Below, in pieces: positions 30,679-31,993 of a stretch of DNA of 64,000 nt (the stretch's first letter is position 1; each line of letters begins with the position of its first letter). The notes below the pieces were generated by a model, which saw only the letters and a list, made by a program, of their open reading frames with translations, was not told the DNA's origin and did no database searches. The translations under genes and the position numbers were made by a program. The DNA lies in the NCBI GenBank assembly GCA_963844715.1, contig CAWJPJ010000007.1, positions 1,024,001 through 1,088,000 of the forward strand, in the 5' to 3' direction. The stretch is from an uncultured Phycisphaerales bacterium (GTDB lineage Bacteria > Planctomycetota > Phycisphaerae > Tepidisphaerales > Tepidisphaeraceae).

Positions 30679-31315
30679 TCACAACTTGATAATCACCGCC
30701 TGCCCCGTGGGAAAATAGACCGGCCGCTCCGGTTTTTCCCGGAAAAAGTCATCCACCGCCTTTTTCGCCCCCGGACACGAGGGGAAACCGTAATCGTCGA
30801 ATACGATGATTCCCGCCCGATTCATTCGCGGATAAAAAAACTCACAGCAAGCCAGCACCGATGAATAAATATCCACGTCCACATGGACCAGCGCGGAACC
30901 GTCTCCCCTCGATCGCTTCCGCCGTCGCGGGAAACAGCCCTGGATAGATCTTTGCGTTAGGCATATCGGACAAAAACTGTCTCACCGATTCAACCGACGT
31001 GTCCGCGAACTCCCCTGTTTTGTGCCAGTCTTTTTTCGGATCGACGGTCGGCAATCCTTCAAACGTATCGAAGAGGTCAACAATTTTGCCCGATTTGCGC
31101 AACACCGCCGCCAATAGCCGCGCCGTTCCTCCCCGATAGACGCCCACTTCTGCCGCGCCGCCCTCCAGTTTCTCCACGGCCAGGGCGAATTGATAAAGCA
31201 GATACATTCGCCCCGGATCCACCAGACTTCGCGTCTTCGCCTGCGCCAGGAGTGTTCGAAACATCTCGTCCGTCTCCCAGAGCTGTAGTACCCGATGATC
31301 GATCGATTCGCCCAT
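30679..31315 (-). CDS. TylF/MycF/NovP-family O-methyltransferase (frameshift near 30890)
   Basis: AEVGVYRGG, LFDTFEGLP, G.FP.T, DVDIYSS, FDDYG..CPGA..AVD. Confidence 0.88.
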
Positions 31316-31330
31316 GCCAAACAGTCTAAC

Positions 31331-31375
31331 AAAAAAAGAAGCCCCGGCGTCTCGAGTGAGAGTCCCCGGGGCTTC
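31331..31375 (-). terminator. Intrinsic terminator
   Basis: GAAGCCCCGG / CCGGGGCTTC 10-bp stem followed by T7 on the minus strand. Confidence 0.85.
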
Positions 31376-31440
31376 GATTTTAGCCGCAAGCTGCTGCAAG
31401 CAGCCGCGTTCATCGCGGGAGTCTCACCCGCGAAAGCTGC

Positions 31441-31476
31441 TTACGGCAGCTTGCTCGTACAGTCACAATAGGTCAC
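31441..31476 (-). CDS. Candidate 11-aa micro-peptide MTYCDCTSKLP
   Basis: GTG start 7 nt after GGAGG within an extended SD GGAGGTGATCC; TAA stop lies in a hairpin loop. Confidence 0.5.
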   Translation of the reverse strand: MTYCDCTSKLP

Positions 31477-31639
31477 AGGATCACCTCCATTTCTGACTTG
31501 AGCGGCACAAACGAGGCCGTCTCAAGGGCCACGCCAAGCCGTCACGGAGCCATCGCTCCGCCGCCGGGCTCTCACTCCCGGAAACGCCTTTCCGGAAACG
31601 TCAGACAAGGTCGCCAGGGAGCACTCAGGCGACCCGCCC

Positions 31640-31669
31640 ATCTTAGCCAAACCGCAGACAAATTTTCAA
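31640..31669 (-). promoter_or_regulatory. Sigma70-type promoter for the structured RNA
   Basis: TTGAAA-18 bp-TAAGAT. Confidence 0.55.
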
Positions 31670-31762: not shown

Positions 31763-31993
31763 ATGCCTCCACCCCAACTAACCCCCGACCAGATCGATCA
31801 AACCTTCCTCGAAATCCGCTGGCGCACCCTCTCCCTGGGCGCCGATCTGGATCGCCTCGACAGAGCAAGGATAAATGACCCGCGCCGCGAAAAACTGAAA
31901 CAAGCCCTGCGAATACTTTTGGAAGAAAACAGCCCCACGAGAGCCGAGAAAATCCAGCTTCTCCACAGCGACCCCCTGGCAACTGGCAACTAG
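31763..31993 (+). CDS. Small helical hypothetical protein
   Basis: 76 aa, FLEIR..LSLGADLDRLDRA; TACAAT 6 nt upstream of the ATG. Confidence 0.7.
   Translation: MPPPQLTPDQIDQTFLEIRWRTLSLGADLDRLDRARINDPRREKLKQALRILLEENSPTRAEKIQLLHSDPLATGN

What the first reader, a model, noticed from the sequence alone, without database searches (positions are those of the whole stretch)
31331..31669. Self-contained structured transcript with a near-perfect 16S-complementary SD, an 11-codon ORF and a terminator loop complementary to upstream loops
Seen on the minus strand, in order: promoter TTGAAA-18-TAAGAT (31669-31640); hairpins GGTCGCC/GGCGACC, CCGGG-AGTGAGAG-CCCGG, GGAGC/GCTCC and CTTGAG/CTCAAG; AGAAATGGAGGTGATCC (31494-31478); GTG ORF MTYCDCTSKLP (31476-31441) with its stop in a hairpin loop; hairpin TCGCGGG-TGAGACT-CCCGCGA; and a 10-bp terminator with T7. 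The terminator 5' arm and loop (CCGGGgaCTCTCACTC) complement GAGTGAGAG-CCCGG at 31577-31564 and match the second loop GTGAGACTCCC at 10 of 11 nt. A MEVIL micro-ORF also overlaps the SD. Established: the canonical 16S 3' end is GGATCACCTCCTTTCT, so this site matches it with one bulge; UGAGA-type T-loops occur in tertiary-structured RNAs. Inference: this is a ribosome-capturing sRNA, a type I TA-like mRNA with 5'-3' pairing, or a Cys-containing leader-peptide attenuator for the TylF methyltransferase starting 16 nt after the U-tract. I do not recognise it as a known family.
Basis: partly seen in the sequence, partly recalled or inferred. Interest (0 to 1): 0.8.

Follow-up and report, generated by a model that had tools for sequence, protein, structure and literature searches.

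The report
Ribosome-docking mini-mRNA with kissing-loop latch
This is a real, free-standing small RNA gene shared across planctomycete bacteria: it has an oversized ribosome landing site and a tiny reading frame whose peptide sequence is not conserved, and its two ends appear latched together by a loop-to-loop contact that a translating ribosome would have to open; related designs are known in other bacteria, but nobody knows their job.

Summary
The element is real, but it is not a conserved tylF leader or a toxin mRNA. It is a single-copy, about 305-nt stand-alone RNA gene with no Rfam match, found across Phycisphaerae and in Gemmataceae-type planctomycetes. The family keeps a promoter, a 5' hairpin with a G-R-C-G loop, an extended Shine-Dalgarno (SD) and a mostly GUG start. 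A 9-13-codon ORF follows, with an in-frame stop at a fixed site in a 3' rod (81 of 92 and 79 of 87 sequences), then a terminator. The peptide is not conserved. New here: the 5' loop and an ACG-Y loop in the rod co-vary as a pair (G:C 84, A:U 40 of 143; best of 2,700 cross-domain pairs), and the loops swap places in 14 of 15 Gemmataceae-type copies. This points to a kissing-loop latch spanning the SD and ORF; phylogeny-corrected support is suggestive only (p about 0.06). The closest known kind is rreB/rreR (Hahn 2016). This scan has noted a planctomycete RNA of this kind before (e1-7668654).

The parts
31640..31669 (-). sigma70-type promoter (-35 31669-31664, -10 31645-31640); start site inferred near 31634
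   Evidence: a promoter-like pattern lies upstream in 76 of 115 family members against 8.5 expected from shuffles
31609..31634 (-). variable 5' hairpin, not conserved in sequence
   Evidence: differs among relatives
31576..31597 (-). conserved 5' hairpin with G-R-C-G tetraloop (GGCG at 31588-31585), the 5' partner of the proposed kissing contact
   Evidence: at least 8 of 9 stem pairs in 28 of 28 relatives; stem pairs are among the top covarying columns
31533..31569 (-). P stem (31569-31563 with 31539-31533) with a GACG internal loop (31543-31540), capped here by a short hairpin (31559-31546); many relatives carry a domain of about 80-175 nt at this place
   Evidence: at least 6 of 7 pairs in 28 of 28 relatives
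31497..31526 (-). variable hairpin closing just before the SD
31478..31494 (-). extended Shine-Dalgarno: 11 contiguous nt (31488-31478) complementary to the genome's own 16S 3' tail, plus a bulged 5' extension
31441..31476 (-). 11-codon ORF, GUG start, UAA stop; family ORFs mostly 9-13 codons, frame and stop position conserved, peptide not
31386..31454 (-). 3' rod: region 1 (31454-31446, last codons) pairs with region 4 (31394-31386); region 2 (31440-31436) pairs with region 3 (31404-31398); the stop lies in the internal loop
31413..31433 (-). T-loop-like arm at the rod tip, found in the Tepidisphaeraceae-type members
   Evidence: 4 of 7 pairs compensatory; loop tally; the T-loop label is from my own knowledge
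31406..31409 (-). ACG-Y element (ACGC), the 3' partner of the kissing contact; inferred pairs G31587:C31406, C31586:G31407, G31585:C31408
31331..31375 (-). intrinsic terminator (10 bp plus U7); its loop (31364-31348) is private to this genome
30679..31315 (-). downstream TylF-family methyltransferase gene, split over two frames near 30890; not part of the conserved unit
   Evidence: Pfam PF05711 hits on both pieces

Best explanation
A stand-alone, translated mini-mRNA whose working part is the RNA and its handling by the ribosome, not the peptide. Shown by comparison: own promoter and terminator, a single copy, an extended SD, a conserved start, frame and stop position, a conserved 5' hairpin and 3' rod, and co-variation between the 5' G-R-C-G loop and the rod's ACG-Y loop. 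Inferred: (1) At rest the two loops kiss through two CG pairs plus an R:Y pair, closing a ring over the SD and ORF. (2) A 30S subunit docks tightly on the long SD. The ORF is never shorter than 9 codons, so the rod base (about +19 or later) sits just beyond an initiating ribosome's footprint, and docking need not open the latch. (3) Only an elongating ribosome unwinds the rod, and it has done so when it terminates at the embedded stop, which releases the latch. The RNA is therefore a two-state device toggled by productive translation: closed and ribosome-parked when elongation is slow, opened and probably turned over when translation is active, as reported for rreB. Its likely role is to sense or buffer ribosome activity. 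The physiological output is not shown.
For: Conservation: 18 of 36 same-family genomes by BLASTN; 37 of 151 class genomes with model R1; 41 of 401 class genomes by exact pattern, one copy each, reversed control 0. Frame: stop in frame at the structural site in 81 of 92 and 79 of 87 in a second, metagenome set that partly overlaps it, where the pattern did not require frame. All three start codons are used; one relative has a 36-nt in-frame insertion that keeps the ORF end. Peptides: 70 distinct of 81. Floor: 0 of 41 matches have a gap of 7-21 nt although the pattern allowed it. Rod covariation. Kiss: G:C 84, A:U 40, A:G 11, A:A 6, A:C 1, G:U 1 of 143; rank 1 of 2,700 cross-domain column pairs, and again rank 1 among the 68 non-T-arm rows; R changes 10 times and Y 11 times on a 73-row tree. 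Loop swap in 14 of 15. GACG loops form loop-loop contacts in murine leukaemia virus RNA (PMC5874298, passages). rreB binds 30S, is weakly translated, and its half-life rises from 10 to 37 min without the start codon (PMC5711450). A 163-nt metatranscriptome contig identical to 31435-31597, and relatives' contigs over 31397-31606, were laid in 4 RNA runs.
Against: No experiment on this RNA. The phylogeny-corrected test of the kiss has only 5 well-supported independent pairs (4.7 same way, 0 opposite, p about 0.06; 2 pairs). 18 of 143 rows lack an R:Y pair. Two rows (L050, L055) were dropped by eye as mis-picked hairpins, and 66 loci failed automated extraction. A protein that recognises both loops could also produce co-variation. 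10 of 92 and 8 of 87 members stop earlier or read past the site, and 5 of 19 close relatives miss the stop. The SD is not predicted to be unusually accessible (median unpaired probability 0.35, the same as the whole RNA). Contiguous complementarity is only 11 nt here and reaches 16 or more in 8 of 92. Overproducing rreB did not slow growth (PMC5711450), which argues against bulk ribosome sequestration. The RNA contigs cannot show strand, ends or level, and the runs were chosen for holding this stretch.
Confidence: 0.55

Rival explanations
1. The peptide is the product: a small lineage-specific effector or metal-binding peptide, with the structure and long SD serving only to keep its output low or conditional.
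For: Frame and stop are conserved. Within Tepidisphaeraceae-type members a D-C-x-C-G-L-L ending recurs. RreB and RreR peptides are conserved within their clades (PMC5711450).
Against: 70 distinct peptides of 81, and 31 of 81 have no Cys. The conserved last codons form a stem and are partly forced by my search pattern. The D-C codons are complementary to a loop in the optional 5' domain (25 of 25 with that loop keep them, 19 of 25 without; classification noisy). Frameshifted members keep the RNA fold.
Confidence: 0.15
2. A trans-acting regulator (base-pairing sRNA or protein sponge) whose ACG-containing loops bind a protein or target; translation only controls its stability or availability.
For: Three ACG/GCG-containing loops recur (5' loop, P-stem internal loop, rod). 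It is a stand-alone unit with varied neighbours.
Against: The two loops co-vary as a Watson-Crick pair and swap places, which is more simply explained by contact with each other. No target or partner was searched for.
Confidence: 0.17
3. A leader-peptide attenuator controlling the downstream gene (tylF here). As the family's function this is unlikely; as a private read-through switch in this genome it is possible.
For: In this genome the terminator's 5' arm and loop pair with the 5' linker. That fold is the minimum-energy fold of the nascent RNA (-146.8) and lies 3.8 kcal/mol above the terminated fold at full length. tylF starts 16 nt after the U-tract, and the consensus scan found no promoter between them.
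Against: TylF is downstream in 0 of 33 other loci; the same-genus relative has convergent ilvC instead. The pairing occurs in 1 of 64. It would have to displace the earlier-formed P stem. tylF is split over two frames here.
Confidence: 0.07
4. A type I toxin-antitoxin mRNA kept silent by 5'-3' pairing.
For: Strong SD, long structured untranslated regions and a long-range contact, as in type I toxin mRNAs (own knowledge).
Against: Peptides are 9-13 aa, mostly polar and unconserved. One copy per genome with partly stable synteny. No antisense promoter on the + strand over the element in the consensus scan.
Confidence: 0.03

Closest known systems
rreB / rreR small mRNAs with extended Shine-Dalgarno, Alphaproteobacteria (Hahn et al. 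2016, PMC5711450; abstract and main text read, figures and supplement not seen)
   Same: Stand-alone small transcript, SD extended towards a GUG start, short ORF, terminator. In 20 Rhodobacteraceae loci fetched here (19 with the 18-codon ORF), the ORF end also pairs with downstream sequence and the stop lies in a rod.
   Different: Contiguous complementarity is mostly 11-15 nt rather than 16-17. The peptide is not conserved. There is a 100-260-nt structured 5' domain, which the rreR loci appear to lack (promoter-like site just upstream of the SD). The G-R-C-G/ACG-Y loop pair and the T-loop arm were not seen in those loci. Model R1 scores them at SD level only (at most 16.4 bits), so homology is not shown.
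Rfam RF01867 CC2171 (Caulobacter sRNA)
   Same: Best Rfam hit; shares the extended SD followed by GUG.
   Different: 21.6 bits against a gathering score of 75; the match is essentially the SD.
GACG tetraloop kissing contact of murine leukaemia virus stem-loops C and D (PMC5874298 and PMC516450, passages; Kim and Tinoco 2000 seen only as a reference title)
   Same: GACG-type loops at both partners; some members carry GACG on both sides.
   Different: Here the contact would be intramolecular, extended by a covarying third pair, and would span a translated ORF.
tmRNA (architecture only; own knowledge)
   Same: Short ORF with its stop in a helix, a T-loop-like arm, and a ring of structure around the coding part.
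   Different: It has its own SD and start codon, and no acceptor stem or CCA end after the arm. The genome has a normal tmRNA elsewhere.

Membership tests
rre small mRNAs (rreB/rreR) | 16-17 nt contiguous complementarity to the 16S 3' end | tested here: not met
   11 nt contiguous in this genome, 16 with one bulge; 16 or more in 8 of 92 family members
rre small mRNAs (rreB/rreR) | short ORF with a mostly GUG start directly after the extended SD | tested here: met
   GTG 78, ATG 7, TTG 6 of 91; 9-13 codons in the 81 with the stop at the site
rre small mRNAs (rreB/rreR) | stand-alone transcript with its own promoter and terminator | tested here: met
   RNA contigs over the element; transcript ends not mapped
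rre small mRNAs (rreB/rreR) | peptide conserved within the clade | tested here: not met
   70 distinct of 81 across the phylum; partly conserved within Tepidisphaeraceae-type members
rre small mRNAs (rreB/rreR) | sequence or structure homology beyond the SD | tested here: not met
   R1 on 20 rreR-type loci: at most 16.4 bits, all starting at the SD; rreB itself was not tested
rre small mRNAs (rreB/rreR) | tight 30S binding, weak translation, start-codon-dependent decay | not testable with these tools
   needs gradients, toeprints and half-life measurements
leader-peptide attenuator | constant downstream gene on the same strand, matching the regulatory codons | tested here: not met
   TylF in 0 of 33 other loci; neighbours varied and often convergent
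leader-peptide attenuator | conserved antiterminator competing with the terminator | tested here: not met
   the proposed pairing occurs in 1 of 64; it is possible in this genome only; other antiterminator folds were not searched
type I toxin-antitoxin | hydrophobic toxin peptide of about 18-60 aa (own knowledge) | tested here: not met
   9-13 aa, mostly polar
type I toxin-antitoxin | antisense RNA | tested here: inconclusive
   no + strand consensus promoter over the element; no stranded reads available
tmRNA / RNase P / SRP / 6S RNA | match to the Rfam model | tested here: not met
   no gathering-level hit in the window or in 10 loci, 7 of this family and 3 rreR-type; tmRNA, RNase P and SRP lie elsewhere in the genome; RF00013 found no 6S in this 85%-complete genome
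Rfam RF02471 Ms_IGR-5 | match to the model | tested here: inconclusive
   no hit in the genome, but the control genomes gave none either

The most novel reading that the evidence does not exclude
The RNA is a clamp for the ribosome. The SD helix holds it at the mRNA exit side, the rod sits at the entry side, and the kissing loop closes a ring around the small subunit that only a full round of elongation and termination can open. It would be an RNA-only device for parking or testing ribosomes, and the most elaborate member of a widespread, undescribed class of ribosome-docking RNAs that includes the rre genes.
Probability: 0.2. Interest if true: 0.88.

Novelty: new variant of a known kind. Interest (0 to 1): 0.62.

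Why it matters
Extended-SD mini-mRNAs have had no known function since rreB was described in 2016. This family separates what selection keeps (SD, frame, stop position, a minimum start-to-structure distance, a loop-loop contact) from what it lets go (the peptide sequence, the neighbours). That argues the RNA-ribosome interaction is the function, and it supplies exact compensatory mutations to test it. If the latch closes around a docked ribosome, it would be a new way for an RNA to sense or store ribosomes.

Tried and rejected
Rfam at gathering score: nothing in the window or in 10 loci; E-value mode gave 7 sub-threshold hits. A phylum-wide search with R1 was insensitive: 5 of 151 genomes, 1 outside the class and borderline, although the pattern scan shows members in Planctomycetia. 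The loose pattern matched at the level of its reversed control and was discarded. An smRNA/SmpX-like tmRNA paralogue (recalled) was rejected: no paper was found, no CCA end follows the arm, and no SmpB-family neighbour appeared. The Rhodopirellula-1 motif (PMC2864571, table row and supplement passages) has a different consensus. A pseudoknot between the optional 5' domain and ORF codons 4-6 is inconclusive: no covariation and noisy classification; the domain is absent in this genome. The exact rre-type pattern found nothing in 5 unrelated genomes. Literature searches found no description of this planctomycete RNA; the library lacks most subscription journals, and the Hahn supplement and figures were not seen. 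PMC10117765 and PMC11109978 (passages) and PMC13009471 (abstract and outline) added nothing specific.

Full report
Observation. The listed features are in the sequence at the stated places. The 313-nt stretch folds better than all 100 shuffles (z -4.88). Rfam gives nothing at gathering score; its best sub-threshold hit, CC2171, rests on the SD. The element is single-copy in the genome. tmRNA, RNase P and SRP genes lie elsewhere, and no 6S was found in this 85%-complete assembly. The genome's own 16S end pairs with the site by 11 contiguous bases plus a bulged extension; the site is third by duplex energy among 20,112 SD-like seeds, the first being the 16S gene's own opposite strand.

Distribution. 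BLASTN finds the element in 18 of 36 same-family genomes and 0 of 24 genomes of other families. A covariance model of the SD-to-rod part (R1, 18 sequences) hits 37 of 151 class genomes and 5 of 151 phylum genomes. An exact pattern gave 119 loci in the genome collection and 120 in metagenomes, both scans capped. Of the genome-collection matches that carry the ACG element, 93 of 97 are labelled Planctomycetota: 59 Phycisphaerae, 20 Planctomycetia, 14 unspecified. Tepidisphaeraceae records carry the same T-loop-arm type as the window, which suggests the window belongs to that family (inference). In 401 class genomes the pattern matched 41, once each, and its reversed control matched none. Several families gave no match, which may reflect divergence.

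It stands alone. A promoter-like pattern lies upstream in 76 of 115 members against 8.5 expected. Of 133 flanking frames from the window and 33 other loci, TylF was hit only in the window. Downstream genes vary, and ilvC is convergent in 3 loci, including the same-genus genome; a TatD-family gene lies upstream in 8. In 4 of 24 listed RNA runs laid on the region, one 163-nt contig is identical to 31435-31597, and relatives' contigs cover 31397-31606. Contigs show presence only, not strand or level.

The ORF is selected for frame, not for sequence. The pattern fixed a stop triplet in the structure but not its frame. Of 119 loci, 97 had the full rod and 92 were unique: 81 have the stop in frame at that site, 7 stop earlier, 3 read past it and 1 has no start. 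In the metagenome set, after removing 25 without a rod and 8 duplicates, 79 of 87 do. Chance would give one in three, though kin are not independent and the two sets partly overlap. Starts are GTG 78, ATG 7 and TTG 6. Lengths are 9, 10, 11 or 13 codons; 70 of 81 peptides differ; 50 contain Cys. Among 19 close relatives, 13 have the 10-11-codon ORF, one has a 36-nt in-frame insertion and 5 miss the stop. With the gap allowed down to 7 nt, none of 41 matches is shorter than the 9-codon spacing. The rod therefore begins at about +19 or later, just beyond the +16/+17 toeprint of an initiating ribosome (established knowledge; the link is my inference).

Structure. The 3' part is a rod in which region 1 pairs with region 4 and region 2 with region 3, with a T-loop-like arm at the tip: 95% of cells are paired and 8 of 22 pairs are compensatory. 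The alternative local hairpins (1:2 and 3:4) can also form but show no compensatory change. For the window, this comparative fold equals the minimum-energy fold.

The latch. The 5' hairpin loop is G-R-C-G, and the rod carries A-C-G-Y at its tip or in the bulge next to the arm. Over 143 unique sequences, R and Y read G:C 84, A:U 40, A:G 11, A:A 6, A:C 1 and G:U 1. This pair is the strongest of 2,700 cross-domain column pairs by corrected mutual information, and it stays first among the 68 members without the arm. The 60 new metagenome rows, which are part of the 143, give G:C 47, A:U 9 and 4 others. On a 73-row tree built without those two columns, R changes 10 times and Y 11 times. Only 5 independent pairs lie on well-supported branches: 4.7 go the same way and none the opposite way, p about 0.06 (2 pairs). 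Two rows were dropped as mis-picked hairpins, and 66 loci failed automated parsing. Separate support comes from a swap: in 15 Gemmataceae-type copies the GACG tetraloop sits at the rod tip, and 14 of them carry at the 5' hairpin the 7-nt ACG-U loop that other members carry at the tip; the fifteenth keeps CGU. GACG loops are known to kiss in retroviral RNA (PMC5874298, passages). I infer an intramolecular kissing loop spanning the SD and ORF.

It is real here (-26.5 kcal/mol; shuffle p 0.00025 locally, 0.012 anywhere) but private: 1 of 64, median -9.9. In this genome it gives an antiterminated fold that is the minimum for the nascent RNA and 3.8 kcal/mol above the terminated fold at full length. 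It may allow read-through into tylF, which is not found in the same-genus genome G002 with this query and is split over two frames here. This is a single-genome observation.

Mechanism. Shown by comparison: a stand-alone gene, an extended SD, a conserved frame and stop position, a free peptide, a minimum spacing, two folded domains and co-varying loops. Inferred: a ribosome docks without opening the latch; elongation to the embedded stop unwinds the rod and opens it; the state of the RNA, and probably its decay, reports or buffers ribosome activity (0.55). Against this: the SD is not predicted to be especially open, about one member in ten lacks the stop at the site, and rreB overproduction had no growth effect.

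Comparison. The nearest kind is rreB/rreR (PMC5711450; abstract and main text read), a lead taken from earlier notes of this scan. Twenty Rhodobacteraceae loci of that type share the SD, the GUG start and a stop within a rod, but show no 5' domain or loop pair and score only at the SD with R1. The element works like an rre mRNA but fails the 16-17-nt and conserved-peptide criteria, so I do not file it as a member. Nine literature searches found no description of it. Word searches of the scan's notes for a kissing loop returned nothing.

Verdict. A real, conserved ribosome-docking mini-mRNA that I did not find in print, and a new variant of a known but unexplained kind. Its main addition is a testable long-range latch. 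Interest 0.62.

Noticed in passing
window 30679-31315 (-): The TylF-family gene is split over two reading frames near 30890, and both pieces hit PF05711; it could be an assembly indel or a pseudogene.
   Followed up: partly
G000 C6:952626-956065 (outside the window): A tight array of 24 tRNA genes on one strand, covering most amino acids.
   Followed up: no
L003, L006, L013, L034-L036 and others, between the P-stem strands: An optional domain of about 80-175 nt with an AGUA/GAA (loop E-like) helix and a loop complementary to ORF codons 4-6; a possible second pseudoknot, absent in this genome.
   Followed up: partly
L016 1428-1620 (+): A 36-nt hairpin-like insertion inside the micro-ORF keeps the frame and the ORF end.
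   Followed up: partly
L335-L354: The rreR-type loci of Rhodobacteraceae contain a second purine-rich, SD-like stretch inside the ORF that pairs with a pyrimidine-rich stretch before the terminator; one locus has a 26-codon ORF.
   Followed up: no
window 31763-31993 (+): A 76-aa ORF without a Pfam hit, divergent from the RNA gene; similar upstream sequence was seen by eye in several relatives.
   Followed up: no
L002, both flanks of the element: The same palindromic repeat of about 30 nt occurs upstream and downstream of the RNA gene.
   Followed up: no
L086 and L087: Full family members lie on contigs labelled Bacillota and Acidobacteriota; mis-binning or transfer.
   Followed up: no
G000 C6:1096633 (+): A 14-nt perfect complement of the 16S tail, slightly stronger than this element's site; its context was not examined.
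   Followed up: no
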